Shown here piece by piece: positions 3,645 to 64,000 of a stretch of 64,000 nucleotides of DNA. Every line of letters begins with the position of its first letter. The stretch's first letter is position 1. The position numbers were made by a program, and so were the translations under genes. This stretch comes from Hormiphora californensis (Eukaryota; Animalia; Ctenophora): positions 1,364,001 to 1,428,000 of the forward strand of contig CM035354.1 in NCBI GenBank assembly GCA_020137815.1, written 5' to 3'. The notes beneath the pieces were generated by a model. That model was given only the letters and a program-made list of their open reading frames with translations. It had not been told where the DNA came from and did no database searches.

Positions 3645-4546
3645 GGATGAGAAAAGCGCTTGTGACGTCATTTTTGACAAGTATCAATTTATTTTCGTGT
3701 GTGTGTGCTCACAAAAAGAAGAGACAATGTCAAGTATCGTCTCATCTCCTATCCACGCATCCTCAAAAACAATAAAATCAGCCCTGTTAGACCAATGCTC
3801 TGACCGCAGTTATCACGGGAAATGAGAATAGGTCAATGCTCTGACAGGACACATACCCATGTAAAGTGGAGTTCCGCAGGTGGTAGTCATCATTTTATCA
3901 CTCCCAAATGTGGAGTTTCCGCCCGTTATGAAGGACAACCCGAAATCTGTTACCTGGCGAGGAAAAGATGCTTTAAAATATTAATATCAGCAACTCAAGT
4001 GGAAAAGATGCTTTAAAATATTAATATCAGTAGTGGATCATTCCACCTCCAGTTGTTTGTTTGACGACGTCCAGTTTTACTAATTAGTTAATTAATGTGT
4101 AATTACCTTAATGTTAAACTTATCATTAGGATCAAGTCCACTAAGTAGGATGTTTTCCAGTTTCAAATCTCTGTGAACAATATCTGAGGAGAGAGAGGGA
4201 GATAGATAATGGGCAAAAGTGGGGCAAAAGTGTTCCATGATAACCGTATAACAGTGCAACCCCCCTTTCTACCAACCCCCCTTTTATTATTTCTACCAAC
4301 GCAATAATGATAACGTCCTCTAACCACAATGTACCCCTCCGAAATATTGGTATCGAAGACACCTCACACGCACGCTGGCAAGGGGTAACTTCGTAACCAA
4401 TCCGAAATAATACCCTCGAATCTCGACGTCCGCGTCTCGGACTTAAGGGGGGGGGGGGGGGGTTACTCACCGTTATCATGAAGATATGCCATAGAGCTAG
4501 CTAGCCGCTGGATTATTATAGCGCACTCCTGTAGGGTAAATATATA

Positions 4547-6776: not shown

Positions 6777-8091
6777 TAGAGATAGAAAGATTGAAGGATA
6801 ACAATTAACAATTAACGAGATATGCCGTTAATTATGGCAGTAGCCTAAAGGTGTTACCCCCGTGACACCACATGGGCCCGGGCATCCAAACTAATTTATT
6901 TAATTGGTTTTTGGACTTAATATATATGTACCTGTTCTGTAAGTTTTGATTGATCCACAAGAGATTTCAACTCTCCTCCATCGCACAGCTCCAGAAATAA
7001 ATAGAGATGCTGGAAAAGGGAGGGTTTGTTAGAAAAAGATAGAGATGCTGGGAAAGGGAGGGTTTGTTAGAAAAATATAGAAATGCTGGGAAAGGGAGGG
7101 TTTGTTAGAAATAGCTGGGAAACTGAATAAGATATACAGGGGGATGACCAAGTTATTGAGCGGCTTGCACTGAAAAAAGAAACTCGTGCAGGCATAGATG
7201 TTTTGCACCATCCCATATGTCTTTCTACTTGCTCTGTCTATCTTTCTATTTGACATCATGTCCCCAGTCCAGTGTCTAGTGTCAACCCGTAATTTTCAAG
7301 AAATTGTAGCGGTGTGTTTCAAAAAGAATAAGAAGAAATAATTCTACTACTTGCCAGGCTCTGACTGTAATATCACACCTCTTGCAGCCGCACCGGGCCC
7401 TCGGTGCGAAGAGGATAGTACTCTTATTTGAGACATTCTACTACATATAATATTTTGTATCAAAAGAGGGGGGGGGGCGGTCGACGTTTTCTCGATAATC
7501 TGCTGCATGTTGCGGCCGGTTCGTAAAGACAGTTTAGACAATGTGTATCTCACTCTGTGGCTGTTATATCTCACTCTGTACTTATAAAACCGCCGCTAAG
7601 ATAAATGTTATGATATATTTCTCCCACGTTATCAATCTGTCTTCTTTCAATCATACCATCCCATCTATCACTTTTCTCATCCTTCTTCTATACCTCTTCA
7701 CCTAGTATTCACTATACGTGAAGTCTAACATTATATCCGATTAAATATATAATGAGCATGAACTTCACGTCATGCTCTTCATGACTAGTTCCCACGATCC
7801 TGGGTGGGCTACCAACTACCAACACTTCCTCAGAATGCTTAGGAGTACTTGTTCTAGAGTGAACAATTGAGTTATTTAAAACACAGTAATTGTTCGATGA
7901 ACTACAGCTGCTACGAAGGAATGGTTTTCATTTCAATATGTGGCCTCCTATTCGTGAGAATACAGCTATCTCTCGAAAACCAAAAACAGTTTTCAAGTAA
8001 TTTCCACCTCATCTCAAGATGAATGATGGATCTATTCAAAGAGAGCTCTCTTGACCAGATCTGCTTGTCAAGTAGTGTACATTTGAGTGTG

Positions 8092-11004: not shown

Positions 11005-12911
11005 TCAGCAGTGATCCGTCAGCTTGAAATGTTCGTCATCCACTGTGCTGTAGATATGACCTTCATTGCTAAGGAACTCAATCGCAATCCGGATCTGGGG
11101 GAGGGAAACATTGATTATGACGTGGAATAACCCCTCGGAATTATTTGATATGATTTTAGAACTAGTGAGAGGCATTTAAAAACACTGTACAAACTACAAA
11201 CTTTCTGGTAGGCCTTGATGCTCTGCCCACTGTTCTCTGCCAGCAAAATCTTGGTAAATACTCACGTCATTCATGGGCATGGAGGTCGTTGATTGTATAT
11301 CCCTAACACTAAGTCCTGTTTGATTGTCAGGAGAACACTTCTTCAGTGCGCTATACACCTGGAGAGAATGGATTTGTTAAGATCTATCTCGGAGAATGGA
11401 AAACATTATGAACTCTGACAGAGAGGTTGAACAATTGGAGAACAGCCTCAGAGAATGTCAGGGGGTGGGGGAGGAGGGATAATACCTTGGTCTGTGTCAT
11501 GGTCATTCCAGGCATGGATCCTCCCTCACTCTGAGCAGCACCGCCGTTATTGTTGAATGTTCCTGAGCACAAATCAAGGAGTTAGTTTGGTTTTTTACGA
11601 GGAGGACACTGTTTGACCAAATCTTCAAGTGTTGCACTACTTTCAATTGACATGTTTCAAGCCCACGCAGGAAAACTCAAGAATGTTTATTGGTACAGAC
11701 ATAAGGAATCAAGACAGTTAACATAACCACTGTCCAACACTAACCTGCTGAGGAGACACCACCAGAGGCGGCCAGTTTAGATCCCATCTTAGGGGCCAGC
11801 TCCTTACCGCACATGAACCTAACCACAGAGAGTCTGTGAAGTAGGAACTCATTGTGGGACTTGATCTCCTTGATAGAGAACGCCATGATACTAGGTTGCT
11901 CCTTGACGAACCGGAGATGACCCACTACTCGGACGTAGCAGTTACTACGGGGGAGGGCACTCGCATCCTGACATGAGAGGTTGGAATGTGAGGTTAACAC
12001 ATAGAGGTGTGAGGTTGAGAATCGGGTGTAACTGTAATTTACAGGGAAAGAGACCGGGGGATATAATAATTCGTGTTACCCTGCTTACATCATTATCGTT
12101 CAAGAATTTCCTAATGTAGAGGGGTTCCGGTGCTGTCCTGTCACAGATGTGATACTCGTAACAAGTTGATCCCTCAGTGATGTCCATAATGTAGCCTACC
12201 ATTTCAACCTGCACAGGAGGGGTTATGACATGATGTAACCTACCATCTCAACCTGGACAGGGTGAAGTGGGGTTATGGTGGGGTTATGACAAGATGTAAC
12301 CTACCATCTCAACCTGGACAGGGTGAAGTGGGGTTATGGAATGGAAACAATCCTACTTGTATTACTACATTATCAGGACTTACCAAATGAAGATCAATGT
12401 TTTCCTTGAAGATGAACATGTCCTTATCAGCATTGTGAACAGCTCTCCTTATCATGCAGTTGGTTACGGGAGATAAACTCTCTGGCCTGTTATTCTGGGC
12501 TTTGCTGGCTGAAGGGGGGAGGTCACATCTCAATTAGAATACCACATGAATGAGGATCCTAGACAGTTTCTGTAGCAACAAGATGCACCTCAGTACTCTC
12601 TCTACTTACAACTCAAAGGTCCTACTACTCTCTCACTACTTACCGCCAGGGGAGGCTCCTGAAGTGTTGAACCCCCCTGCATCACCAAACCCTCCACTCT
12701 CTACTACTCTCCCATTACTCTCTCACTACTTACCACCAGGGGAGGCGCCTGAAGTGTTGAATCCCCCTGCATCACCAAACCCTCCACTCTCTACTACTCT
12801 CCCATTACTCTCTCACTACTTACCACCAGGGGAGGCTCCTGAAGTGTTGAATCCCCCTGCATCACCAAACCCTCCACCTGCCTGTGAACTACCAAAATCT
12901 CCTTGGAACAT
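11005..12911 (-). CDS. RPA2: Replication protein A 32-kDa subunit
   Basis: Exons 12911-12824, 12508-12384, 12208-12089, 11967-11745, 11562-11486, 11358-11266 and 11094-11005 join in phase. Gly/Ser-rich N-terminus, OB fold (YVRVVGHLR..NEFLLHRL), and winged-helix end FLSNEGHIYSTVDDEHFK. Confidence 0.95.
12622..12877 (-). repeat. 3 x 90-bp tandem repeat spanning the RPA2 exon-1 donor site
   Basis: Unit = last 54 nt of exon 1 + first 36 nt of intron. GTAAGT donors at 12823, 12733 and 12643. Confidence 0.95.
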
Positions 12912-12921
12912 TCTAGTAACA

Positions 12922-13312
12922 AGTGTTAGGGAACTTTGTGTGATATCGTGTTAGGACGTGTTAGGGAATTTTAGTGTGATATCGTGTTAGGGAATTTTAG
13001 TGTGATATGGTGTTAGGGAATTTTAGTGTGATATCGTGTTAGGGAATGTTAGTGTGATATCGTGTTAGGGAATTTTAGTGTGATATCGTGTTAGGGAATG
13101 TTAGTGTGATATCGTGTTAGGGAATGTTAGTGTGATATCGTGTTAGGGAATGTTAGTGTGATATCGTGTTAGGGAATGTTAGTGTGATATCGTGTTAGGG
13201 AATGTTAGTGTGATATCGTGTTAGGGAATTTTAGTGTGATATCGTGTTAGGGAATGTTAGTGTGATATCGTGTTAGGGAATGTTAGTGTGATATCGTGTT
13301 AGGGAATGTTAG
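12922..13312. repeat. 26-bp minisatellite (GTGTTAGGGAATGTTAGTGTGATATC), about 15 copies
   Basis: Direct inspection. Ends about 10 nt upstream of the RPA2 ATG. Confidence 0.95.
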
Positions 13313-13616
13313 GAGGAATTCATTGGAAAATGTTTTATGACGAGATCGGGGGACTGAGGAGAGAGAGCTCAGAGAGTTTACTAACATTATCGAGTAAACA
13401 GAGACAAATGTTGCGATTAAACGAAAAAGAAACAAACAAACAAATCCCTTGCTCGACCCTGCTTCACTGCGTCCCAATTCCGGGAAATGTAAAGAGGGTT
13501 AGAACATAACAACAAATCCAACGGTGAGATGATGTACCCCTTGGTATCGAAGACACCTCAGTCCTCACGTGCGTGCTGGCAAGGGGTAACTTCGTAACCA
13601 AATGTACCCCACTATA

Positions 13617-16600
13617 TCATTGAGAAGATACAAATGTTTTAGGTATCTTATACTCAGTTAACAGAAGTTTAGTAGCATGTTTCCTCGCATCACCCTGTAC
13701 GAGCACCTCCTCACCCTTCACACCCTGCACTACACACGCACTGGACGATTGTAGTAGTTGGAGTTTTTGGGCCAGCTCCTTGCCCTCTATTCCAAAGATT
13801 GAAAAGTTTGAGATGAGGGTCACCACTTTGTTTCCCGTCCTTTTCTCCACCTTGTACTGTATTGGAGGCAACTTTCCCTTTACAGTAATGGGAATGCGAC
13901 CAGGGAGAGAGATCACGTAACACTGCCCAAAGGCTTGCTCCGCTCTTTGCATCACATCGTTCCATTTGCATCTCACGTCCTTGATCTTGGAAAGATCTGC
14001 TAGGTGAGGGTCTAGGGTTATCCGTGATTTGTCGCCATCCAGAACGAGGTTTTGTTGTCGGATGTAGTTAGTTAGACTTGCTCTGATTTCCTTCCGTGTG
14101 AGGATGTCACCCTTTTTATAGCCTGCGGAAACAGAGGTTTTTGTAGCCTGTGTGGAAACATAAGTTGAGAAAGAGGGATTTATTTCTTGGTCTGACAGTA
14201 ACATAATAAGAACTGTGCAAAAGCTAGACCGTATCATATGAAACAATGAAAGCTGCAAAACCTACCAAACTTAGAAAAGAATTTAGCAGCATGTGCGTTA
14301 CAAGTGAATGCCTGAACAACAGCTATATCTTCCTCCTCTTCATCCTCCTCCTCCTCCTCTTTCTCCAGTCTCTTGATACCACGAAGTAGCAGGTGGGTGA
14401 AGTTGATTTCAGTGATACTCTGTACACCTGGGCGAGGGGGGGGGGGGGTCATGGGAGTGGGGTTATACACTGTATAATATACAGTGAGGATGGGAGATGT
14501 GTTACGGAGGATCAAACATTAATATTGGAAGAGTGGCCATCCCTTTTAGTATCAGAATGGAGGATAATCTAATGAGAAGAGTGTCTCAATTCTTGCTTGC
14601 TTGTTCTTTATGTTCTAACCCTCGGAGTGATAGGGTCGAACAAGGCAAACCTTTCTTCTGCTCCTTCACGGTTAGTAATCCAGTCTCCTGTAGTTCCTTC
14701 AGGAGTGTCCCCAACTTCTTCCACTTGGTATGCTTTATCTCAACTTGGTGTTCACAGCATCCCTAAATAATGGTTTGGTAACAAAGTTACCCCTCCCTTG
14801 CCAGCACGCGAAGGGGTAAATAACGGTTTGGTAAGAATTAATCAGTGCCAGTTGCAACCCTACAACTTATGGGAAGCAACATATGCTAACATGTCAAATG
14901 TTCTGTTCAGAAAACTGAATTATTGCACTGGAGAAGGTTGGCGACAGCCTCCAGTGTTTACGAATAAAAGGATTACTCACCTTTACATGCTGACTATAAA
15001 AAGCGCTCGTTAAAATAGGCAGATCCGTCTTCTTGATACTTGTCTTAATGGCCCGATAACATCCCTCTAATAGTATCTGGTCCTTGTTTAACTCCTCCTC
15101 TTCTTCTTCTACTGTTGCTTCCATTTCTCCGAGTTGTTCAGTTATCTCTGTTACCCCATCTTGCTCCTCAGAGGCGGTAGTGGGTTGCTCATCTTCAACT
15201 CTGGTTTCTTCAGCTAAAACTGTAAAATGGTAAGTGGTTTTAGTTGCCAACAATTTGAAGTAGTTTCTCTCTAATTTCGTCGAGAGCATAACACTTGCCT
15301 TGTTTGAACAAAACAACATTTCAAACAATATAAACCTACCAGGGAATTCTTCTTGAGACTGTGAAACATTATAATCAGGTAGCGGGAGCTGCGGCATCTT
15401 ATCTTTAGGTCCAAAATGCCACAGTTGATCAAGATAAACTTGGTAGACAATAATCCCCTTGCCTTTCATGCCTGCTGCCAAGGCCTCTCCCCTGCCCACT
15501 GCCCAAATACCTACTGCCATAGCTGCTCCTGAGTTAGTCGAGCATACTGAGACTACCTGGAGAGGGAGAGTAACGGTTTGAGGACCATCAGGCGAGCCAA
15601 GTCTTGAATTGACCAAATTGCAGTCCCGCTTTTTGAAGCCACAACTCGGGTCCGCGCGTCATTTTGGCGCTTCTACAGGAGTTCCAGGGGGGCCTTTCAG
15701 TTTAAGAGTGTCTTCGCGCGTTACAGTCAGAGTCTAGTGAGCTTGTCGGCAACACTGGGACACAAAATGTGTCGCAACGCCACAGTTAACATTAATGAAT
15801 TAATATTCTATCGATAATGAATCATGAAACATGATGATGAGTTGATAAACACAGTTCACACAACATTCTCTACTCACATCTCCAGCCTGCCAGTCAGCAG
15901 GTAAAGAATGGTGAAGTATGCCTGGTAACATAACATCAGCTCCACCAACAAGCCTATCCAGAACATTTAGGGGCACCATAACACGGGGCACTGGGGAATA
16001 CGATGTTACACATTTGGACTGGTGCCAATATTAATCACTTACACAGATCAGGCACTTTCCAAAGTGTGTAGACAGTTGGGATTGGGATTTCACCTTCCAG
16101 GGTCACAAACATTGGTGTCTTATCGAGGCAGTGAACCTGGAAAATACACACTTATTGTTGAAAAATGTAGAGAGCTAAAAACTTAACTGAACTGTTCGTA
16201 CTGCCTCGACAGTCTACGTTAAAAACGGTTCAAAAACATCTCCCGTATTGAATCCTTGAGTGCTCGGATGATAGATGCGCTCTTCAAAAACTAACTACCT
16301 CAATCATTCCCAGGGTTGTATCATGGGGTAGAACTCTAGTGATTGTAATGTTGGCCTTGTTGCTAAGTAGCTCACTAATCTCAGGGTGACTGGAGAAACA
16401 TTGCTCAACTAGAGCACGGAACTTCTTCCTGTTGTGGAAATATTTGGGTCAGGGGATTTGGGTCAGGGGATTTGGGTCAGGGGATTTGGGTCAGGAGATT
16501 TGGGTCAGGGGATTTGGGTCAGGAGATTTGGGCCAGGGGATTTGGGTCAGGAGATTTGGGTCAGGGGATTTTCTGTTCGAGATTTGGGCCAGGAGATTTG

Positions 16601-16875
16601 GGTCAGGAGATTTGGGTCAGGAGATTTGGGTCAGGGGATTTGGGTCAGGGGATTTGGGTCAGGGCCCAGGGGATTGGAGTCAGGAAGTTTTCTGTTACAG
16701 ATTTGGGCCAGGAAATTTTGACTCTTTTAAATTTCACCGTGCAGTGAGACAGTGTCGAACAAGGTCATGGGATTTCGTTAAAGGAGATTGGACCCCAGGA
16801 GATTTTTAGTTTCACTTACTTCTCTGAAGATTTTAGCTGAACGCTGGACTTTACTCGAAATGATTTGATAAACAT
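13617..16875 (-). CDS. EIF2D: Eukaryotic translation initiation factor 2D (ligatin)
   Basis: First exon MFIKSFRVKSSVQLKSSEK, then PTVYTLWKVPDL, PUA motif LVGGADVMLPG, SWIB-like region (LTNYIRQQNL..ITLDPHL) and C-terminal SUI1 (KVEKRTGNKVVTLI..EVLVQGD). About 10 exons; stop at 13617-13619. Confidence 0.93.
16441..16720. repeat. 15-bp minisatellite (GATTTGGGTCAGGRG) in eIF2D intron 1
   Basis: Direct inspection. Abuts the exon-2 acceptor at ~16429. Confidence 0.95.
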
Positions 16876-21791: not shown

Positions 21792-24700
21792 TCAACTGCC
21801 AACCGTATTTTTCCTTCGTTTCAATTCCAAATGTTCATCAATGCGCTTTCTCAGGGAAAGGTGAAAATCTTGAATCACCTCAACCATACTAGAGTTTATA
21901 ACTTTAGCGGGGACAAAGGGGAGTTTGAGGTCACAGTTGACGACATAAGTTAGTTTGACTGATCCGTCTAGGTCCGGGAAGAAGACATAGCCACATGGCC
22001 CGTTGCAGCCTCTGGAGAGGGAGAGATAATGTCAATTAGTACAACACGAGGGTAGCAAACTTAACAACTTTTATGATGAAATTTACTGAAATGTTATATT
22101 TTACCTGACATATGACTTGGAGACAGGTTTTACAGGATCGTCTATGTCTCTGTTCACTATGAAGAACATGTCTCGCTCCTTTGCCCAGTATCGTAACGTC
22201 AGAAACTCTCTGGGTAAGAGAGGGATGTTGATTCAGCTTTGTGAGATGGGAGTGAGATTCTAGGGGTATTAATTCCAAATATAGAAGGGGATATGGGATA
22301 ATTTCAGCTCAATGTGCTGCAATAGGGGCATAGTATTATTATAGAGGATTGGATAAGGTGATATCTCTACCAAACCTTTCTAATTTCTATATTTGCCTCT
22401 TTCTCTCTCTTTCCATATCTATCGCTGACACACAATCCCAGTAATTGTGATGGTCATTTTGCTATGGGAAAGCCATACACACAACTCATCATTACACTCA
22501 AAACAATTCCACTCATTCGCTCTAGTATAGTCTCTCTCCTTCAACATTCAAAACATCAACACACACATATTCAGTCGTCTGTGGTTTAGACATACCTACA
22601 GAGAACACACAGAGACTAGAGATAGAGAAAAAAAAGAAGTAGAGAGAGACAAATAAGAAACAATCAAGCCACATCACCACGAACACCCATTAATTAATCC
22701 CCAATTTACTGCGTTTACCTGCTTTTAATAAGACCACCGGCTCCATCGACTCCAATACTGTAAATAATATCCATTCGTGAGTTTAGTCTCTCTACCTCTT
22801 CCAGCTGTGTGGGAAATGTTAAAAGTGTTAAAAGAGGGTGTTAAAATAATGAATGTATGAGTGTAACATAAATCATGAGGGCCTTCTCTATTTCTTGTAA
22901 TGTCATACTGGAATTATGCCCGCATTGAACTTGTTTTTATGTTCTAACAAGCTCGCGAAAAGGGGTTCGAGCTAGGCAATGAACTTGTATACCCCTAAAA
23001 TAATTAGGCTTGGGGTATCCCCTTTTTTAATGGAGAACGCAAGAGAGGGGGAAACTGTGCCTGATCGTAAACCAATATCTCACCTCGATAATGCCTTTAT
23101 TCCAGGACACTGCCCCGGAAATCTGTCTATACAAAACATCATATAAATCCTCAAGAGAACAGAAAAAGTTGGACTCGCTGAGAAATATCTTATTGGGCAT
23201 TTTCCGTTGTGCCCGACTGAAAACTTTGACCCCTTCTTTCTCTGACTCTGTTGTCCATCCGTCAGGCCAGAATACTGTTTCTCTTAGTTGTCCCATGGCA
23301 TCTACTGATACTTCGTAGAGCCTTTTACCCTGGATGGAGAGGAGGCGGTTAGAGAGATGGAGATTAGAGAGGGAAGTGAGATGCAGAGTTTCGGGCATCC
23401 ATCCAATGTCATGGGTAGTGGAGAAAACGTGATAAATAGCATGAATATTATGAGTCGAGTGCTGTAAATACACATATTTTGGGTGACAAGTCCCATGTTC
23501 ACAGTAAACAGTTGTAGTACATGTTAATATATATGCTACTCAAGAAGCAACTACAGACATTGGAATACACACTGGAAAGTAATCAGTGTTTTATATCGGA
23601 ACAAGATTTTTAATATCTTCTCTGGCTGATAATCTCACTTTCTCTCTCACACATACACGCCCTACTGTTTAACAGTGAAGGGGAAACATACAGCGGGCAG
23701 TGCAGGTCACGGTTGTGGAAGAATGGATTGGTTAAATATCAATGAATGAGATCTGTTCAGGATTAAATAGGGAGGAAAATTAGAAAAATATATCTGGCGA
23801 GGGCCGGGCTCGAACCGTCAACCTCTGGTTTTCGCGTCCATTGTTCTACCTCAATAAGTAGAGCAATGGATGCGAAACCCAGAGGTTGTCGGTTCGAGCC
23901 CGGCCATCGCCAGTTTTTTTTTCTAATTTTCCTCCCTACTTAATCCTGAACAGATCTCATTCATTGATAGTGTTTTATATCCATACAAAGCTTCTTCTAG
24001 GAGACACGTGTGAATTGTGAAAGCTACATGTGAATCTGACAATTGTAGGGGAATGTTATGAAATTGATATGTTCCAACTTACCCTGTAGTCTAAGTTTGA
24101 TACGTCCTCTGGTGGTAATGCAGCACCTGAAACAGAAGAAATAGAAGAAATAGGGTTACATATACCAGGAACTACATACCATATTAAATTATATCCCACA
24201 AATTATATCCCCTTTATCAAAAGATTATCTATGTTATTGTCCACCCCCACCCCCAAGTATTAGTATTATTATGGGCACCTGGTATGTGGATTGGGGAGAT
24301 TAACCCCCCCCCACCCCCACCCCCAAGTATTAGGTCCCCTGTTATTATTATGGGCACCTGGTATGTGAATTGGGGGAGCAGCGTGCCCCCCCACCCCCCC
24401 CCCAAGATCCCCTATATTGGATATTATTGTGGGCACCTCGTATGTGGATTGGGGGAGATTACCCCCACCCACCCCCCACCCACCCCCCTGTTATTATGGG
24501 CACCTGGTATGTGGATTGGGGGAGCGGCGTGTTTTCAAAAGATAATCTTTCTAGATTACCCCCCCCCCCCCACCCCCAAGTATTAGATCCCCTGTTATTA
24601 CTATGGGCACCTGGTATGTGAATTGGGGGAGCGGCGTGTTTTCTTTGATATTGTCCACCCCCCCCCCCCCCCCCACAAGTATTAGATCCCCTGTTATTAT

Positions 24701-25916
24701 GGGCACCTGGTATGTGGATTGGGGGAGATTACCCCCACCCCCACCCCCCAAGTATTAGTATTATTATGGGCACCTGGTATGTGGATTGGGGGAGCGGCGT
24801 GAACCCCCCCCCCCAAGATCCCCTATATTGGATATTATTATGAGCACCTGGTATGTGGATTGGGGGAGCGGCGTGAACCCCCCCACCCCCCCCCCCCCCC
24901 CCCCCGAAGATCCCCTATTATATTGGATATTATTATGAGCACCTGGTATGTGGATTGGGGGAGCAGCGTGTTTTCTTTTGGAACTTGACCTCAGCCTTCT
25001 AATCATCATCTAATGATGGGGCGCTGTGAGACAGGGTCGAACAGGGCAACTAATATGGCAGCTTGAATTGTTCAAACAGTAGGGAAACAGGAGACTCAAG
25101 CAAGAAGACAGTACCAAGCGGCTGGTAGCAATACAAAGTGAGAAAAGTGAAAGTGAGAAAAGTGGAAATAGTGCACACAGACATCGCATTTAGCAGTCTA
25201 CATATTCGACGTAGTGGGGATTATAATCGAATTTATTGAGAAAACTGGGAATAGAGAAAATACGGGCGATGCATCAGCACATGTAGGGAATGTATAACAA
25301 TGGATTACCCCAGATACACTGGATTATTTGAATATTTGGAGATCACAATTTCGACAATGGATCAAGAAGTATTATGGGCTGTGTAGTGTGTCACAGTGTT
25401 TGAAATATTAGAGTGAATATAGGCTTTATGCAGGTAGAATATACACGCTAATGAAGCAAAGAGAACTGCTGCAGCAGCTCATACAGTGCACGAGAGAGCT
25501 AATGTATAGTCCGAGATTGCAGGGAGAGAGGGAGAGAGGGAGAGAGAGAGAAACAGACTACAGAGAGAGAGGGGGAAATTAAGGTATAGCGAGAGAGAAA
25601 GGGAACTGTAAGATAACAATAAGGCAGCTGTGCAGTTAGCTCCCTTTCTTTTTTCCCAAGGAAATTTCACAACACTAAATCTGAAGGACGTCATAGGAAG
25701 TACGTCATAGGAACCTGAGATGCGACGTATCTCAGGTTTCTATGACGTCCAGAGCGAAAAAAAAATCGGAAAGACTGGTGAAGCAACAATTTACCAAACA
25801 ACTCAAAATGTGCTGGATCACCACAAAATACTGAAAATAGCTCTTAATTCACATCATCAGTACTGCACACACATCACGGACACAGCTCGCAGCTGTTTTA
25901 GGATCATCTGACAATT

Positions 25917-26965: not shown

Positions 26966-29900
26966 GGGGGAGAGAGACACTAGACAGTTATCGCATTTCC
27001 TCTCTATCCCGATTCAGGACAGACCTGTGCTATCTCAGATACTGTACGTGGTGTGGAATTAAATCCCAATCAAAAGGTTGAAGAAACTGAAGATGGTTTC
27101 AGAAGAGTACCTTGATTACTAATCAGGACTCCATGAGACCATCTTTAGTCTAATGAGATTAGAAGAGAATACTGGTTTCAACGAACACACAAAAAGTGAT
27201 AGCAAGGAGAGAGAGGATACGAATTGACAGCAATACTACCATGTCGACTGAGTCTGCAGCAATCCCAGTCGCCAGCTGGTGCACCGTGTATTATCACCTT
27301 ATGTTGTAGAGCTGAGAGGCGACTTGAGAGGTACACGCACCTGACTTATCACCTCATTTTTATTGAACGCTATATTTGTTATACCAGTGCAGCACCAGTT
27401 GTGTTTGCCATATTTCTTTGTCACGAGGCCCAATCACGAGGCCCAATATTCCAATAGTGACTTTATCACACACACACACACACCTCCACTTTTCGAACAT
27501 AGTTTCAAGTTGTCGTGGTGGTTTCTGATTTCACTCCAAACAAAAGTCGTACGATTTTTATCAGTCTGTTGCACCCCATATGATATGCAGCTTCCATACA
27601 CGCACATTGCTAGCTGAAGACGCAACACAAGTTGACATAGAAGATACAGGTAGAGGAGAAAAAGGGAGAACAAAGAATTCAGATTGAATGTCAATCACAA
27701 TCCATTATATATATCGTGTTACTACGGCCAAAGATGCACCTAAAATTCGGGTAGCTAGACCTACTATAACAGCTGTACTGTGTGTGCTTATAGCATGATT
27801 CATTGGGGAGAAACCGAAACGGGGGATAGTGCGAGACATAACCACGATCCCCAATCATCCCCCAGAATGCAATCTAGTTATTACTTCTTGATCTACCGAA
27901 CCAGATCAGTGACCCACACAAGGCATTACCTCCGGAAATCGCCCCCAGACTGCAAACCAATTAATTATTAATATTACCTTCTAATCTAGGAATTACCTCC
28001 AGAAATCACCCCCAGACTATAATCATATTAATTATTCAAATTACCTACTTAATAACCTTCCTAATTAATTATTAATATAACCTCCTAATCTAGACATTAC
28101 CTCCGGGGGTAGGAGGGATGGTTGCAGAGGGAGTTTGGAATGCTGAGTAGTTAAATACACTCTCTGGACCCGTTCCAGTGTAGACCCTGAAAATAATAAA
28201 CATCTCATGATCATTTGGTGTACATGATATAATAATAATATATGCTGATATTATGAACAAAGAACACATCAACAACAGACCTTGATGTGGTTAAGTACTC
28301 GGAGAGTGTAATACACTCTCATACACTTTAAGTGTATGAGTTTTAATACTCATGGCTCACGCATGCTTTTGCTGTCTGACATGAAATCTTACCCGCCCGA
28401 CAGTAGCGGTGTAGTCTCACTGTTGTATGATCTGGGTCGGAGGTTACGTGTAACCTGGTTCTCCACCTTCAGGACTTTAGTTTCAAATAGCCAAACCTCA
28501 GTCCAACATAATACAAAGGAGGCCAGGAGGAGACTGTACGTCTCAAATGTATTATTCTGAAACGGAATTCTGAATCAAATCAAACCATAAAACATACTAC
28601 TGGTCCACTGATTATTGGAGATTGATATTTGATATCAACTAGCATATTTCATATTTGGCCAAACTTACATCAACTTTATCAAAAAGTATTAGTTTTACAA
28701 AAACATAAGCTGTGGAAGCAACTGTTGTTACCTGTCGGGGGGAGAATAGTTAGAATTAGAAAGAAAGTAAATACATTTGATTTGTGTAGGTAATGATAAA
28801 CAACTTAGAAATATAACATTCTCTGTTGATAAACTTTTATAGGTAGATTCGCAACATCTGTTATTTGTAATTCAACTTGAAATCTGTTGCACTTACTATC
28901 ACAGTGATCTGAAGTTTGCTCATGATAACCCAGTAGTGTAGGATAAGAACTGCAGATCGTACCCAACTCAATAACTAGAACACGGGAAATTAGGAGTTTA
29001 GTTCGTAGTGTCAAACCCAACTCAATAACTAGAACACGGGAAATTAGGAGTTTCGTCCGTAGTGTCGAACCCAATTGTAGAACGGGAAATTAGGAGTTTA
29101 TTCCATGTGTGACTGCCCCTTAAGTTATGTTCTAACCCTCCTTTACATTGTAAAAGAGTTGTCTAACAAGGCAAGACTGCCCCAGTGTTGAGAGAGATAA
29201 AGAACTTACTAAGAGATCTGCCATGGAGTGTTTGTAGGAAAAATGTTTAACAGCCTCATCCCAAGCTTTTGGTAAATCTTTGTAAGTATTCTGAGGGGAT
29301 AAAACATATTCTCAACAAACCTTTTTAGAGCAAATATTTAAATTCTTTTTTAGACAAGCAACTGCACATGTTTCACATCACTTACGATTGCTATGATAAC
29401 CCACAGAATGCTCATTAGTAAAAAATCAAAAACACAGCAAATGCTAAAAAGTCGCCGAGCTGAACTTCGTTGTTGGGGTAAAACCTCGTCTGTGATATAG
29501 TTTCCGGCTGCATGGGGAAGTATAGTGTTGGTTCGGAATTATAGGACACACAGCCAAATGTTGAACCTTACACACTGCATTTAGAACTTGGTTCGAACAA
29601 GGAGACCCCGCACACGCACAGTGGTAATTTACTATACGTCGTTAATTACCAAAGAGAACCAGGATCCTGCACAGTTTTAATATCTAAGTCATTAGAAGTG
29701 TCACTTACCTGTTGAAGGAATATAAAGGTAGCTGTCTGAGGAGCGAGGTGGGGTAGCTGTCACACTATAGTTGTGCAAACTGGTCGGGCCACTGAAATAG
29801 TATTGGTTACTAAGGTAACTAGGTCAGTTGCTATGGTAGCTGTCACACTATAGTTGTGCAAACTGGTCGGGCCACTGAAATAATATTGGTTACTAAGGTA

Positions 29901-30324
29901 ACTAGGTTAGTTGCTATGGTAGCTGTCACACTGTAGTTGTGCAAACTGGTCGGGCCACTGAAATAGTATTGGTTACTAAGGTAACTAGGTTAGTTGCTAT
30001 GGTAGCTGTCACACTATAGTTGTGCAAACTGGTCGGGCCACTGAAATAATATTGGTTACTAAGGTAACTAGGTTAGTTGCTATGGTAGCTGTCACACTAT
30101 AGTTGTGCAAACTGGTCGGGCCACTGAAATAATGTAAGTAGTAATAATATACTGCTTAATAAACTTTCAAGGATTTGAATATTTCTTGTTAGGGACGGTG
30201 TATATTCCAATATGTACCTTGAACTAGCGCCTGACACTGCTGATGGATTCATCTGGGAGAGGATTTCCTGTGCCGTAACGTGTGCCTGAAATGCTCGTTC
30301 ATCTTCATAGCCTCCAGTATTCAT
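21792..30324 (-). CDS. STARD3: StAR-related lipid transfer protein 3 (MLN64): MENTAL + START domains
   Basis: 13 in-phase exons: 30324-30218, 29791-29709, 29489-29386 (SARRLFSICCVFDFLLMSILWVI), 29290-29210, 28974-28897, 28731-28669 (VTTVASTAYVFVKLIL), 28556-28393 (SFVLCWTEVWLFETKVL), 28186-28101, 24126-24083, 23329-23084, 22804-22719 (GAGGLIKSR), 22209-22105 (EFLTLR) and 22011-21792 (RGCNGPCGY..NCDLK). Confidence 0.92.
23737..23969. mobile_element. Palindrome of two head-to-head tRNA-derived (SINE-like) arms
   Basis: The right arm reads AGTAGAGCA..AGAGGTTGTCGGTTCGAGCCCGGCCATCGCCA (D-arm end, T-loop/B-box, CCA) followed by a T-rich tail. The left arm is its reverse complement with about 10 differences. 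TA at both ends. Confidence 0.8.
24235..24975. repeat. Irregular tandem array, 9 copies of TTATTATGRGCACCTGGTATGTGGATTGGGG with poly-C spacers
   Basis: Direct inspection. In a STARD3 intron about 110 nt from the 24126 acceptor. Confidence 0.9.
29752..30131 (-). repeat. 5 x 83-bp tandem repeat spanning the STARD3 exon-2 acceptor
   Basis: TTTCAG|TGGCCCGACC.. recurs with exon-equivalent starts at 30123, 30040, 29957, 29874 and 29791 (the real one). Confidence 0.95.
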
Positions 30325-39676: not shown

Positions 39677-40062
39677 TAAGGAACCATAATAAAGTTCAAG
39701 AGCGCACCCCATCCAAGAGCGCACCACCTCCAAAAGACACCACTCCGAGAGCGCACCACATCAAAGAGAGCTCCCCATCCAGAAGATACCGCGCGCAGGG
39801 GACACCACGCGCAGAAGAGACCGCACGCGCAAATACAACGCCGCGCTGGTCTCTTCTGCGCGTGGTGTCCCCTGCGCGTGGTATCTTCTGGATGGGGAGC
39901 TCTCTTTGATGTGGTGCGCTCTTGAAGTGGTGTCTTCTGGAGGTGGTGCGCTCTTGGATGTGGTCTCTTTTGGGTGTGGTGCGCTCTCAGGTGTGGTCTC
40001 TCTTCGATCGGGGGCGCTCTTGGGTGCTCTTGGAGGCTCTTGAACTTTATTATGGTTCCTTA
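39677..40062. mobile_element. Palindromic MITE with internal ~19-bp repeats
   Basis: TAAGGAACCATAATAAAGTTCAAGAG ... CTCTTGAACTTTATTATGGTTCCTTA. A diverged relative lies at ~40527-40744. Confidence 0.8.
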
Positions 40063-41049: not shown

Positions 41050-42835
41050 CTACTGCTCGGGGCATTTGCAGACGAAAGGTCGTTTGTAGTGGATGAAGGA
41101 ATCGTCCCATCTTCCGTGATCTCGGAAAATTCCAGCGCAATCCTGACCTCCGGGGAATCTCTGCATATCGTCCGGTTGTTGTTTGTCCCAGTTGGTCCAC
41201 TGTACCAATATTTCCATCAAGATCAATCCAGACATCCTCCTGCTCCAAATCACTAGCACCGATCCACAGCTAGGGAAGAGGGGGGGTTACTAGGGGGTGT
41301 TACTAGGGGTTACTAGGTGTTACTAGGGAGTAGGGGTTACCAGGGGGTGTTACTAGGGGTTACTAGGGGTTACTAGGGGGTGTTACTAGGGGTTACCAGG
41401 GGGTGTTACTAGGGGTTACTAGGTGTTAGAATCCACAGCTGGGGGGGGGGCTTACTAGGGGTTACAAATGGTGAGGGGGGTGGGGGGGGGGGCTCCAAAT
41501 CGCTAGGGTCGCGTCGGTTTTCGGGTGATTAGGGGAGGGGGTGGCCGGTAGGTATTATGGTCGGTTGTTGCCTGTTTTATGATCCGGGGAGGGGGTCGGG
41601 GGAGATGGGGGTTATGGGTTACTTATTAGATAGAGACGAACTGTATTGGAATTCTGAGCTATTACTACCTTATAATTTACTAATTTCACTTACCCAGTTC
41701 TCGTGGGCAAACTTCCTGGCATTAGGATGGGACTCGAAACTCTTCTGGATGTCAGACAGGAGTTGGGCATTCTCCTCCGCACTCTTTGGGAAGGCCAACA
41801 CCATACCCATATCCTGGCATGTCTGGACGGCCGTGGTCCAGTTCACGTACTCATACACAGGTGCAAATACAACATGACCAATGCCGTAGACATCCTCGCA
41901 GGTCTGATCAGGAACCCTGATTTCAATGTCGATCTCAATGTTGGTCCCCTTGCAGCAGTCCCTGATGACACACCTGTAGTTATCCAGGTGATCTTCAGTT
42001 ACCTCCGGGATGAAGAGGGTCGCCTTACCAGATCCAATCACTCCCATCATATCACCCACCTTATCTGGAATGGGGGGGGTGTTAGTGGGGGGGGGGATCC
42101 AATAACTCCCATCATCTCACCCACCTTATCTGGAATGGGGGTAGGGGTGTTAGTGGGGGGGGGGGGGTGTGTGTTAGTGGGGGGAATCCAATAACTCCCA
42201 TCATCTCACCGATCTTATCTGGAATGGGGGGGGGGGGGGAGGTTGACAAGGATGAAATTTAGGGCGGTTATCGAGATTCAATAGAAGACAAATACTCAAT
42301 ATATATGGTGGTGGTCAAGCCAGGAAGGATAGTGTTTTAATAGAAGACAAATACTAAGCAGCAATACTGGGCTAGTATCTAACTAATTAGTCTTTAGTTA
42401 GTGAATTAACTTACCTTTTCCTACACCGGTGGTCTTGTACCAGATAACATTGGGGTCTGATCCAGCGTGGTTATGGGCGGCACACACAACGGAAACCTTC
42501 TGTCCTAGCTCCACCTCAAGTACCTCAGGGGGCCTCATTATAACCTCAATCTCACCAGTTGACTTGGTGCAGAAGGTGTTGGACCTTTGGGCAACTGTGG
42601 AGAGAGGAGGGGGTTAGTGGGTAACTGTGGATGGAAAGAGAGAGAGAGAGAGAGGAGGTTAGTTTTGGGGTTTTTAGATGGGGCCGAGCTTTAGATTTAA
42701 TAAGAACTACGAGAGCAATAAGTCTGCCACAGTACAGTTACTTATTGGTACAGTACCACCATGGTATACAGTACTAAGTGGGTGTGACTCACCTGCAAGA
42801 GCGAGAAGCCCAGCTAGAATGATAACTCGGATCAT
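41050..42835 (-). CDS. Secreted Ig-domain + C-type lectin protein (apparent 1-nt frameshift in last exon)
   Basis: Exons 42835-42793 (signal peptide MIRVIILAGLLALA), 42594-42415 (VSVVC..VIWYK), 42064-41694 (TLFI..DNYRC; NWTTAVQTC..LA..EEN) and 41269-41050 (LWIG..W, then after a frame change WTNW..QPD..C..WDD..FVC). Confidence 0.85.
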
Positions 42836-43788: not shown

Positions 43789-46700
43789 ATGGGTAAACAA
43801 GAAGCCGGGGGTCTGAGGAGTTTTGTGGCGGGAGGTACTGGTGGGGTGTGCTGTGTTGCTTCTGGACAACCATTCGATACCATCAAGGTATGAATGATGA
43901 TATATCATCTGACCCCCTGTGACTTCGTAACCAAGGTATGAATGATAATATACATCACCATACATCACCCACCTATAGTATCTTAGGTGGAAGACCTCTT
44001 TTTGTATTTACTAACACACCAATAACTCTCTGTTACTCCCCAACAACTGCGTTAACCAATAATTTCTCCCCCAGGTCCGAATGCAAAACCAGGTCGGCGG
44101 TGCGCTCTACAAAAATAGTATTGATTGTACTGTAAAGACCATACGGAATGAGGTGAGAACTGAGACAATCCGCCATTAAATTCAACCATCTAATTATCAG
44201 ATAATCGCAGTGTTTGTTCTATTTAGGTTTTCAACCCGCCCTGTGTAACATTTCAGGGATTTTTCGCCCTCTACAAAGGGATGGCAGCACCCCTCGTAGG
44301 AGTAGTCCCTATATTTGCTGTTAACTTCCTCGGCTATTCCCACGGCAAGAGTCTTCAGCTTATGAACTCTAAAAGCCAAACTCTGAGGTTAGTAATGCAT
44401 TGTTAGGTGTGCTGCTTCTCTCAGACTCAGGAGTAGAAAGGATTATAAAAAGAGATGCGTAGTTTTTCAAATAAACGGGTCAATATGAAATTATTATTCA
44501 AGAATATAATAAGCGCTATTGCTTTACACCTGGTGGCTTTTCTCTTGTTCTATAGAGTACAATTCCATGCTGATGAGTTAGACTAGTTTTTATTCAAAGG
44601 AAAACTGAGTTTTCTCTTAAAATAAACACTAGTCTAATATAATATGGAGTAATCTCATGGTAATATTCGACATTATCTCCTATAATAGTTAAATTATGAT
44701 ATAGTGGTCAATGTGGTGTCATGATGTAGTTTATAGGTCCTTGGTCATCTAGTTCATTAAAAGGGCACATAGGATGGTAAATTTGAATTATCGTTAGACA
44801 GATCAATAATTGTTATAGACTAAGATCAGTAACTATTACACGTGACTCAGTATAATTGTCGGGAAGATATAGACGTATTATTGAAGCTTCACACACATGA
44901 AGTTCCTGTCACCCACATCATTACCATTTCACTTGCCATTCTACGCCCGGTGTATCTAAGACAGCCGACATACTGGGAGTATATTTCATGTAGCATTTCT
45001 CATGATTACCATCCTATTCTCCCTATTTTCCTACATTTTGCCACCCATTTCTCACCCCCCTCCCCCATTTCTCACCCTCCCTTCCTCCCCCATTTCTCAC
45101 CCTCCCTCCCTCAGTCCGTTACAACATGGTTTTGCTGGTTCTCTGGGGGGCCTCTACATGACTGCCCTGATAGCTCCTGGTGAACGGATCAAGTGTCTGC
45201 TTCAGGTATTAAACTAGGGCAGTATTAGAGAGGGAGCTACCATGGTTATTAGTACCGGGATATCAAGAGGGCGGGTGGTGGAGGCCAAGAGAGGCCGAGA
45301 GAGAGAGAAGTGCGTTGTGGGCCTAATTAGTAGTTGGTGCGTTGTGGGTGAGCCATCGGCACCCTCTAACTCTGGACTCTGGAGAGAGAGAACCGTTCCC
45401 AGTTCCTACTCTGGAGAGAGAGAGAGATAGAGAGAGAGAACCGCACAGCTTTCAATGAGACTCGACGTACCTCCCTCAAAAGCTGCTCAAAACTCTTTCT
45501 AATTGGTCTAGCCACACCTAGCCATACTATGATGTAATTTAACAGTAGTTTTCCACCAACACCACCAGTAGGACTGGCACCACACTGGGAAATGGCCCCA
45601 GATCATTGGCCTGCTGGTACCACTTCTCAGTTCTCACTCCCTCCTAGATCCAGACGACTGGTCCTGCTAAGTACAGCGGTCCCCCTCCCTCCCTCCCAGA
45701 TCTAACTAACAGATCTAATTCCCTCTTCCCTCCTAGATCCAGACGACTGGTCCTGCTAAGTACAGCGGTCCAATGACCCCATTCCCTCTAACTAACAGAT
45801 CTAATTCCCTCTTCCTTCCTAGATCCAGACGACTGGTGCTGCTAAATATAGTGGTCCCCCTCCCTCCCTCCCAGATCCAACTAACAGATCTAATTCCCTC
45901 TTCCCTCCTAGATCCAGACGACTGGTCCTGCTAAGTACAGCGGTCCCCCTCCCTCCCTCCCAGATCCAACTAGCAGATATAATTCCCTCTTCCCTCCCCT
46001 TCCTAGATCCAGACGACTGGTCCTGCTAAGTACAGCGGTCCAATGGATGTACTAAAGCAGAGTTACAGGGAGGGAGGAATAAGGAATGTAATGCGAGGAA
46101 CAGTCATTACCGCTGTCAGAGGTACAAATATTAATAATATTAATAATTAATACTAGTGTAATACAAATACTATTTAATACAAAATGCAACTTACAAGTGA
46201 GGTCCAATCTTGTTCCCTAATATTAGATAATAGATAGATGTACATGAGTGACACTCATTGAGTGTTGAATCGATGTTCCATTTAAAATCTTTCTCAGACT
46301 CTCTGTCACCAATACATATACTCCATTACCCCCCTCCCATCCAGATATGCCAGCCTCATTCTGCTAACAGTGACCTATTCCCCCATCCAGATATGCCAGC
46401 CTCAGGGTGCTACTTTGCTGCGTATGAGCTGACTAAATCCAGATTTAGGGCGGCTAATGGCAGTGATGATCTCGCGTTCTGGCAAGTGCTTGTTGCTGGC
46501 GGGTTCGCTGGGTGGGCTAACTGGGCCTGGGGTATCGCCCCTGATGTTGTGAAGACTAGATACCAGACAGCCCCTGAGGGGAAATACAAGAGTGCCATGA
46601 GCGTAGTTCCTGAACTGGTATGTGTGGTTTGGTGTTACCACGTGTTGTACAGTACACGTGTTGTGTGTAATTGTGTACCTTGTAGTTACACAAACTATTA

Positions 46701-48277: not shown

Positions 48278-48968
48278 GATGGTTGCTATGGTGACAGGAA
48301 GGTTGCTATGGTGACAGGATCTGATATTGCTGCTGTATCGATCACACAGTGGAGTATAGTTGCTATGGTTGCTATGGTAACAGGATGCTGCTACACAGTC
48401 GAGTATAGTTGGTGTTTGGTAGCTGCAGTGGGAGGTTGCTATGGTGACAGGATGCTGCTACACAGTGGAGTATAGTTGGTGTTTGGTAGCTGCAGTGGGA
48501 GGTTGCTATAGTGACAGGATGCTGCTACACAGTGGAGTATAGTTGGTGTTTGGTAGCTGCAGTGGGAGGTTGCTGTGGTGACAGGATGCTGCTACACAGT
48601 GGAGTATAGTTGGTGTTTGGTAGCTGCAGTGGGAGGTTGCTATAGTGACAGGATGCTGCTACACAGTGGAGTATAGTTGGTGTTTGGTAGCTGCAGTGGG
48701 AGGTTGCTATGGTGACAGGATGCTGCTACACAGTGGAGTATAGTTGGTGTTTGGTAGCTACAGTGGGAGGTTGCTATGGTGACAGGATGCTGCTACACAG
48801 TGGAGTATAGTTGGTGTTTGGTAGCTGCAGTGGGAGGTTGCTATGGTGACAGGATGCTGCTACACAGTGGAGTATAGTTGGTGTTTGGTAGCTGCAGTGG
48901 GAGGTTGCTATGGTGACAGGATGCTGCTACACAGTGGAGTATAGTTGGTGTTTGGTAGCTGCAGTGGG
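48278..48968 (-). repeat. 9 x 67-bp tandem repeat spanning the stop codon of the SLC25A20 paralogue, plus decayed partial copies
   Basis: Stop-equivalent CTA (+ strand) at 48391, 48458, 48525, 48592, 48659, 48726, 48793, 48860 and 48927. Confidence 0.95.
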
Positions 48969-63600: not shown

Positions 63601-64000
63601 TAGACAGGGAGACGCCGCCAGGTCGACGTGGGGATGTAAGTAAACGTCCTGCATCATAGAGGTGGGTTGAGTGTAGAACACCTTACGAACGGTGGGGATG
63701 GTTGACAGTGTGACGTCCTGCGTAGACAGTGTGGGGTTTAGCAGGGTTAGAACGTCCTGCACATTAACAGGGTCCAGTTAAAGCCGCATCAGGAGTACGG
63801 TGGGGGGGGTTAGACAGGGGTTAGAACAATTCGCCAGGAGGGGTTGACAGGGTAGAAGGCCACATGGACGGGTGGGGGGTTAGACAGGGGGTTAGAACGT
63901 CCCTTGCATCAGAGCAGGGGTGGGGGGGTTAGAACAGGGGGTTAGGAACAATTCCTGCATCAGTCGAGACAGGGGTGGGGGGTGTAGGACAGGGGGTTAG
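60631..64000. repeat. G-rich ~52-55-bp satellite (CCTGCATCAGTGAGACAGGGGTGGGGGGTTAGACAGGGGGTTAGAAC + AATT or GT)
   Basis: Dozens of copies running to the window end and becoming progressively noisier. Interrupted at ~62463-62787. Confidence 0.95.
62463..62787. mobile_element. MITE-like insertion inside the satellite
   Basis: Central inverted repeat TTTTTCGGTGCGCG..TCAGAGGCCT / AGGCCTCTGA..CGCGCACCGAAAAA and weakly inverted ends. Confidence 0.5.

What the first reader, a model, noticed from the sequence alone, without database searches (positions are those of the whole stretch)
12622..12877. RPA2 exon-1 donor triplicated; all differences silent
Three GTAAGT donors 90 bp apart. Exon-part differences are GGA>GGC, GGA>GGG and GGT>GGC, all Gly third positions. 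Using a distal donor would read into TAG immediately (GGT AAG TAG), so the copies should be untranslated, yet they look constrained.
Basis: seen in the sequence. Interest (0 to 1): 0.78.

Follow-up and report, generated by a model that had tools for sequence, protein, structure and literature searches.

The report
Comb-jelly RPA2 splice-donor repeat archives alleles
In a comb-jelly DNA-replication gene (RPA2), the end of the first coding exon and its splice signal are copied three times in a row, a repeat type already known from lancelets and human genes, and the copies differ only at silent positions likely because they were taken from other working alleles of a very variable species rather than because they are translated.

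Summary
Real, but a known kind of repeat. A 90-bp unit (54 nt of RPA2's first coding exon plus 36 nt of intron) stands 2.8 times at 12626-12877 in a pleurobrachiid-like ctenophore; its three exon-part differences are silent glycine third positions (about 0.026 by chance). DNA runs fit three units on one chromosome and one on the homolog; another animal likely has ten or more. It is a variable-number repeat spanning a splice donor, like amphioxus 'mirages' and human F7 IVS7. Selection on the copies is not needed: all 21 listed allelic differences in RPA2 exons are silent, copy 2's letter is in another animal's spliced mRNA, copy 3's GGC is on a second path in the same animal, and the other animal's array holds a missense and a frameshift. 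The copies likely captured working alleles by unequal crossing-over. Six other junction repeats in the window show the same bias (16 of 24 variants silent overall, 5.8 expected). In-frame 33-nt mini-exon use is not excluded. The scan reported this pattern and reading earlier on other DNA of this genome.

The parts
12824..12911 (-). RPA2 first coding exon (ATG at 12911, phase-1 donor after 12824); its last 54 nt are the exon part of repeat copy 1
   Evidence: 28/29 identical to P0007 N-terminus; 816-nt CDS, no internal stop
12788..12877 (-). 90-bp unit, copy 1 (live exon end + authentic donor GTAAGT 12823-12818 + 36 nt intron with internal 11-nt duplication)
12698..12787 (-). copy 2; pseudo-donor 12733-12728; GGC at 12747; in-frame AGs ending 12767 (33-nt mini-exon) and 12749 (15-nt)
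   Evidence: same 24 nt in RNA contig X7
12626..12697 (-). copy 3 (partial); pseudo-donor 12643-12638; GGG at 12672, GGC at 12645; runs into the unique intron
   Evidence: X1 contig 12445-12685 with 0 differences; X2 contig with both letters
12384..12508 (-). RPA2 coding exon 2 (acceptor joined to the exon-1-type donor in RNA)
   Evidence: RNA joints
12219..12339 (-). second junction repeat in RPA2: exon-3 acceptor + 24 nt of exon 3 copied twice (61-bp unit); 3 silent + 1 missense variant; replaced by other sequence on the second haplotype and in sample S2
   Evidence: loose ends at 12211/12217/12337
12957..13312 (-). 26-bp x13.7 array with CTAAC branch-point-like motif just upstream of the AG before the ATG
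11005..12208 (-). RPA2 coding exons 3-7 (12208-12089, 11967-11745, 11562-11486, 11358-11266, 11094-11005)
   Evidence: four of these joints seen in RNA; exon 6/7 junction inferred from sequence; RPA_C

Best explanation
The three donors are a copy-number-variable tandem repeat spanning RPA2's first coding exon-intron border, whose extra units likely stay in the intron and likely owe their silent-only differences to capture from other working alleles of the exon. A local duplication of exon end plus intron start made an array; unequal crossing-over or conversion between homologous chromosomes (inferred) grows, shrinks and reshuffles it. Because homologs in this animal differ by several percent, almost all at silent sites within exons, a unit copied from the other homolog's live exon brings only silent differences. 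Splicing would use the most upstream donor (inferred from F7 IVS7 and amphioxus data, not shown here), so the extra units are removed with the intron and slowly gather unfiltered mutations.
For: Shown: k-mer depth of four contigs from two DNA runs of sample S1 (1.96, 1.59, 2.30, 2.15 x haploid) fits '3 units as assembled + single-unit homolog' (1.89, 1.65, 2.45, 2.00; SSE 0.05) far better than five alternatives (SSE 0.72-5.0). Sample S2: two contigs over one interval sum to 14-18 x flank depth in X5, one contig is 4.9 x flank in X6 (rough). All 21 coding-exon differences among those listed between haplotypes/samples are silent (from 40 of 111 rows shown and the rows), including a three-letter site in the live exon (12879 GCA/GCT/GCG). 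Copy 2's GGC is in a spliced RNA contig of an unrelated sample (24 nt, 0 differences, joined to exon 2). An X4 contig joins the unique intron to a unit with GGC at 12825 but GGA at 12852, a combination absent from the assembly, likely the homolog's single live exon. Site 12837 has a third letter, GGT, in S2. S2 array units carry GGA>AGA and a +1 G. Window-wide: 16 of 24 distinct variants in 7 junction repeats are silent against 5.8 expected (P about 1e-5), and one carrier-gene copy has a block of 4 differences in 35 nt while its three sister copies have none. Bolinopsis has the same intron position with a single donor.
Against: No raw RNA reads from an animal with a known array: first-donor use is inferred. 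The one RNA contig maps by best fit to donor 2, and stops at an adapter after 24 nt, so use of copy 2 as a 33-nt in-frame mini-exon cannot be excluded. Copy 2's GGC and the homolog's structure in S1 rest on depth modelling of collapsed contigs, not on a spanning read; no listed X2 or X4 contig (4 of 4 and 6 of 6 listed) shows GGC at 12837. The intron contig depth is 0.7-1.3 x haploid, which the model does not address. Copy 3's GGG (12672) was not seen in any live exon. Only 8 of 41 (X5) and 8 of 23 (X6) contigs were listed and variants near contig ends are not tabulated. The GGA>AGA change lies 2 nt from the unit junction and may be a shifted breakpoint. The 24 variants are not independent, and cases were picked from Tandem Repeats Finder rows by eye.
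Confidence: 0.74

Rival explanations
1. Order of duplication plus chance: copy 3 split off first, two silent changes then arose in the live exon (under selection) before copy 2 was made, and one silent change in copy 2 is luck.
For: Two of three variants separate copy 3 from copies 1+2, and a single change is silent with probability about 0.3.
Against: Does not explain copy 2's letter in another animal's mRNA, GGC+GGA on a second path in S1 or the 4-difference block in one carrier copy. Not exclusive of allele capture.
Confidence: 0.12
2. The copies are used as in-frame mini-exons (33 nt after GCAG, 57-nt intron; or 15 nt after TCAG, 75-nt intron) that lengthen RPA2's glycine-rich N-terminal tail, so selection keeps them silent.
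For: Both AGs are in phase with the donor; all three variants fall within the 33-nt stretch (chance about 0.23); the RNA contig maps to donor 2; the Bolinopsis exon is longer and internally repetitive.
Against: P0007 (a gene model) has one unit. The RNA contig runs unbroken through the 15-nt acceptor, excluding that form for this molecule. A +1 G inside the 33-nt stretch is present in an S2 unit at about flank depth. Acceptor-type repeats with the same silent bias cannot be mini-exons because they have no donor. Pyrimidine content before the AGs is only 6-8 of 12.
Confidence: 0.07
3. Distal donors are a regulatory device: their use makes stop-containing mRNA that nonsense-mediated decay removes, tuning RPA2 dose by copy number.
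For: Any distal donor gives a stop after residue 31; in human CBS and one other gene some pseudo-sites are used (PMC1557585 introduction passage).
Against: Would not select for silent codon changes; array size ranges from likely 1 to ten or more; absent in Bolinopsis; similar repeats sit at many unrelated junctions.
Confidence: 0.04
4. Assembly artefact: both alleles of the exon were stacked in tandem by the assembler.
For: Other arrays in the window look indel-noisy (60632-64000); the animal is highly heterozygous.
Against: The unit-to-unit junction is present in X2 and X4 contigs with 0 differences at about twice and 1.6 times haploid depth, and in S2; models with two or four units fit much worse.
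Confidence: 0.02

Closest known systems
Amphioxus 'mirage' minisatellites (Adh3; globins BflGb6, BflGb9); PMC3087553, passages read
   Same: Tandem duplication of an exon-intron boundary with its splice signal; both 5' and 3' boundaries; different unit numbers on different haplotypes; unequal crossing-over proposed; normal splicing apparently undisturbed.
   Different: Here in a ctenophore. The word 'synonymous' does not occur in that paper's main text; a silent bias and its link to live alleles are not described there (supplements not read). Somatic instability untested here.
Human F7 IVS7 37-bp VNTR, with CBS IVS13, LMNB2, PDGF intron 4; PMC1557585, abstract and passages read
   Same: First monomer spans the donor, followed by identical pseudo-donors; polymorphic copy number; only the upstream site normally used in F7, LMNB2, PDGF.
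   Different: F7's unit holds 4 exon bases; here 54 of 90 are coding, so codon-level comparisons are possible. Upstream-donor selection was shown in mammalian cells, not in ctenophores; in CBS two pseudo-sites are also used.
RPA2 / RPA32 (human 2pi2_A; Bolinopsis gene in L001)
   Same: Gly/Ser-rich N-terminus, OB fold, C-terminal RPA_C; same neighbour eIF2D and same phase-1 intron after S-P-G in Bolinopsis.
   Different: Bolinopsis has one donor and no junction repeat at this intron.

Membership tests
Mirage / exon-boundary minisatellite | Head-to-tail repeat whose unit spans an exon-intron boundary | tested here: met
   90-bp unit = 54 exon + 36 intron, 2.8 copies; boundary confirmed by RNA joint type and by P0007
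Mirage / exon-boundary minisatellite | Repeated units keep the splice signal | tested here: met
   G|GTAAGT in all three units
Mirage / exon-boundary minisatellite | Unit number differs between haplotypes or individuals | tested here: met
   Depth fit 3 vs 1 in S1; about 5-18 x flank depth in S2; inferred from contig depth, not spanning reads
Mirage / exon-boundary minisatellite | Normal splicing is not disturbed (authentic site used) | tested here: inconclusive
   One RNA contig from another sample, 24 nt upstream of the joint, array status unknown
Mirage / exon-boundary minisatellite | Somatic length instability (reported for Adh3) | not testable with these tools
   Only assembled contigs were served; no raw or long reads
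F7-type pseudo-donor array | Only the most upstream of identical donors is used; the next takes over when it is lost | not testable with these tools
   Needs minigenes or RNA of an array carrier
RPA2 (RPA32) | OB-fold core similar to RPA32 | tested here: met
   P0007 (204 of 211 aligned residues identical to the window model) vs 2pi2_A E 3.3e-12; Pfam itself gave no OB hit
RPA2 (RPA32) | C-terminal winged helix RPA_C | tested here: met
   PF08784 E 2.3e-6, 28.7 bits over cut-off 22.6
Alternative in-frame mini-exons | Transcripts joining donor 1 to an acceptor inside a copy | tested here: inconclusive
   15-nt form excluded for the one contig seen; 33-nt form not excluded

The most novel reading that the evidence does not exclude
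Junction arrays are a standing reserve of working exon ends that rotate in and out of the coding position: each contraction or conversion hands the reading frame to a different unit, so selection filters the whole array over time, and ctenophore genomes carry thousands of such dated allele archives plus natural multi-donor and multi-acceptor competition tests of how an early-branching animal picks the outermost splice site.
Probability: 0.2. Interest if true: 0.6.

Novelty: new member of a known kind. Interest (0 to 1): 0.27.

Why it matters
As a single locus it is ordinary: a splice-junction VNTR. Two things keep some value. It is a natural 1 vs 3 vs many test of 5' splice-site choice among identical donors in an essential gene of a ctenophore, a lineage with short introns where the nearer donor might be expected to win; allele-specific RNA from one heterozygous animal would settle it. 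And it shows that silent-only differences in non-coding copies can come from allele capture in a hyper-diverse species, a trap for anyone reading low dN/dS in partial duplicates as proof of function. I found no paper on such repeats in ctenophores or on their silent bias in five searches, within a library limited to open papers.

Tried and rejected
No whole genome is held for the window. P0007 has no contig on record; a 25-nt exon pattern found nothing in metagenome contigs; a third homolog search with P0007 residues 1-110 returned only P0007 and P0006, so no further transcripts with or without mini-exons were available. X8 (guessed RNA) laid 0 contigs, which proves nothing. X7 holds no cover upstream of 12757. 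GTAAGT is not enriched in the window overall (36 vs 33.2 +/- 5.8); only the 90-bp spacing matters. Pfam scans of 231 picked ORFs were used only to name neighbouring genes. Left out of the silent tally: 3961-4037, 48367-48968, 24264-24950, 60632-64000 (no exon part found by eye), 27921-28100 and 41283-41440 (exon part under 12 nt). Look-ups of earlier findings near this place and by sequence returned nothing. Rejected: assembly artefact; 33-nt intron at TAG|AGAGT (in frame but too short and purine-rich).

Full report
Observation. On the minus strand a 90-bp unit stands 2.8 times at 12626-12877 with 97% matches. Each unit has 54 nt of exon end, G|GTAAGT and intron start; donors lie at 12823, 12733 and 12643. 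The three exon-part differences are GGA>GGG (12672, copy 3), GGA>GGC (12747, copy 2) and GGT>GGC (12645, copy 3). Reading through donor 1 stops after residue 31. A fourth GTAAGT at 12609 sits in a degenerate partial copy. With 28-31% of random changes silent in this stretch, 3 of 3 has probability 0.023-0.030: suggestive, weak alone.

The gene and organism. The upstream neighbour is eIF2D (SUI1), whose best named relative is Bolinopsis microptera at 60%. In Bolinopsis an RPA_C gene follows eIF2D too, with the same phase-1 intron after S-P-G, a single donor and no junction repeat. Seven exons give a 271-residue frame without internal stop; the last exon hits RPA_C; a 95%-identical database protein, P0007, hits human RPA32 at E 3.3e-12 and has one N-terminal unit. 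The animal is a ctenophore, likely a pleurobrachiid (inference; the 'sb/' label as Pleurobrachia bachei is recalled). High heterozygosity and trans-splicing are reported for the pleurobrachiid Hormiphora (PMC8527503, passages); the AG one base before the ATG makes this the first coding exon, not necessarily exon 1.

Is it real? Seven of eight listed runs hold part of the stretch. Laid on one unit, runs X2 and X4 of sample S1 each give a contig across the unit-to-unit junction with 0 differences; X1 gives 12445-12685, copy 3 plus intron, with 0 differences. Observed depths of four contigs relative to haploid flank (1.96, 1.59, 2.30, 2.15) match a model of three units as assembled plus a single-unit homolog (1.89, 1.65, 2.45, 2.00; SSE 0.05); five alternatives, among them 'copy 2's GGC is an error', two units, four units and three on both homologs, give SSE 0.72-5.0. 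S1 may be the source of the assembly, so this tests assembly, not spread. In sample S2, contigs on the unit reach 14-18 times (X5, two contigs over one interval) and 4.9 times (X6, one contig) the flank depth. Contig depth is a rough guide only, but the array is clearly larger there. So this is a variable-number repeat.

Why silent? Alleles of RPA2 differ heavily and silently: S1's second haplotype has 13 differences in 233 nt around exon 4, and all 21 coding differences I could classify (from 40 of 111 rows shown; one further listed site was outside the CDS, intronic rows were not entered) are silent. P0007 does differ by 7 residues in 211, so alleles or close species are not free of amino-acid change. 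Within the unit, site 12837 has three letters (GGA, GGC, and GGT in S2's last unit), as does 12879 in the live exon. The RNA run X7, an unrelated metatranscriptome 31 letters in 662 different from the window, gives one 713-nt contig with five RPA2 joints; its last 24 nt match copy 2 exactly, including GGC, and join exon 2, then adapter. The simplest reading is that this animal's live exon carries GGC; literal use of donor 2 through a 33-nt mini-exon is the alternative and cannot be excluded, while the 15-nt form is excluded for this molecule. In X4 a contig joins the unique intron to a unit with one difference only, GGC at 12825 with GGA at 12852, a combination the assembly lacks and likely the homolog's live exon. 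So two of the three letters have a likely live counterpart; copy 3's GGG has none seen. In S2's array the visible variants are two silent (CCT>CCC, GGA>GGT), one missense (GGA>AGA, 2 nt from the junction) and one +1 G at about flank depth: units are not held to frame or protein. Only 16 of 64 S2 contigs were listed.

The pattern is not special to this donor. The window has 131 tandem-repeat rows. Seven repeats with at least 17 nt of exon (RPA2 donor and exon-3 acceptor, a kinase, a MENTAL-domain gene, an Ig-domain gene, two mitochondrial carriers) give 16 silent of 24 distinct variants against 5.8 expected, P about 1e-5 (13 of 21 without this locus; variants not independent; frames outside RPA2 inferred). 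One carrier copy has four differences in 35 nt while three sister copies have none, a block that fits import from another allele. RPA2's exon-3 acceptor repeat is replaced by other sequence on S1's second haplotype and in S2 (loose ends). Acceptor copies have no donor and cannot be mini-exons, yet show the same bias.

Mechanism. Shown: array, variants, reality in DNA, silent allelic diversity, shared letter in an mRNA. Inferred: 3-versus-1 and larger arrays (depth), capture by unequal exchange between homologs, use of the upstream donor. Confidence 0.74. Rivals: duplication order plus chance (0.12, compatible), translated mini-exons (0.07), regulated decay (0.04), artefact (0.02).

Comparison. 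Human F7 IVS7 is a polymorphic donor-spanning VNTR in which only the upstream site is used (PMC1557585, abstract and passages). This locus meets the structural and polymorphism features; the splicing feature is untested. Five searches found no paper on such repeats in ctenophores or on their silent bias; supplements were not read. Earlier unreviewed notes of this scan describe the same pattern and the allele-capture reading on other pieces of this genome; I had written that reading before seeing them.

Verdict. New member of a known kind; interest 0.27. The residual interest is the ready-made splice-site competition test and the possibility that units rotate through the coding position.

Noticed in passing
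window 12219-12339 (-): RPA2 exon-3 acceptor plus 24 nt of exon copied twice; three silent and one missense variant; other haplotypes carry unrelated sequence here.
   Followed up: yes
window 51212-51320 (-): Mitochondrial carrier exon end and donor duplicated (56 bp); three differences in 39 exon nt, all silent.
   Followed up: partly
window 45638-46041 (+): Carrier acceptor plus 35 nt of exon, five copies; one copy (45823) has four differences, the others none.
   Followed up: partly
window 42031-42230 (-), 29752-30133 (-), 6993-7111 (-): Acceptor-spanning repeats in an Ig-domain gene (conservative D/E, V/I differences), a MENTAL-domain gene (83 bp x4.6) and a kinase (38 bp x3).
   Followed up: partly
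window 12957-13312, 16442-16664, 41283-41428; L001 18510-18962: Arrays of branch-point-like motifs (CTAAC, CTGAC, ACTAAT) directly upstream of acceptors, also in the Bolinopsis RPA2 intron (11 bp x41).
   Followed up: no
window 13617-12911; L001 17204-17482: eIF2D and RPA2 are adjacent on one strand with a short gap and an AG just before the RPA2 ATG in both ctenophores; compatible with trans-splicing or a polycistronic unit.
   Followed up: no
window 11562/11561 (-) exon-5 acceptor to 11486 donor: The RNA-supported donor after 11486 is a weak GTATTA; P0007's model diverges from the window frame after this point and has an extra stretch before exon 4, so that database model is probably mis-spliced.
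   Followed up: partly
window 13565-13602 and 14774-14811: 38-nt inverted pair, 76% complementary, flanking eIF2D's last exons.
   Followed up: no
window 60632-64000: 50-bp array with heavy indel noise, possibly unpolished long-read sequence.
   Followed up: no
window 39690-40040: Near-perfect palindrome with 17-bp sub-repeats in both arms, MITE-like.
   Followed up: no
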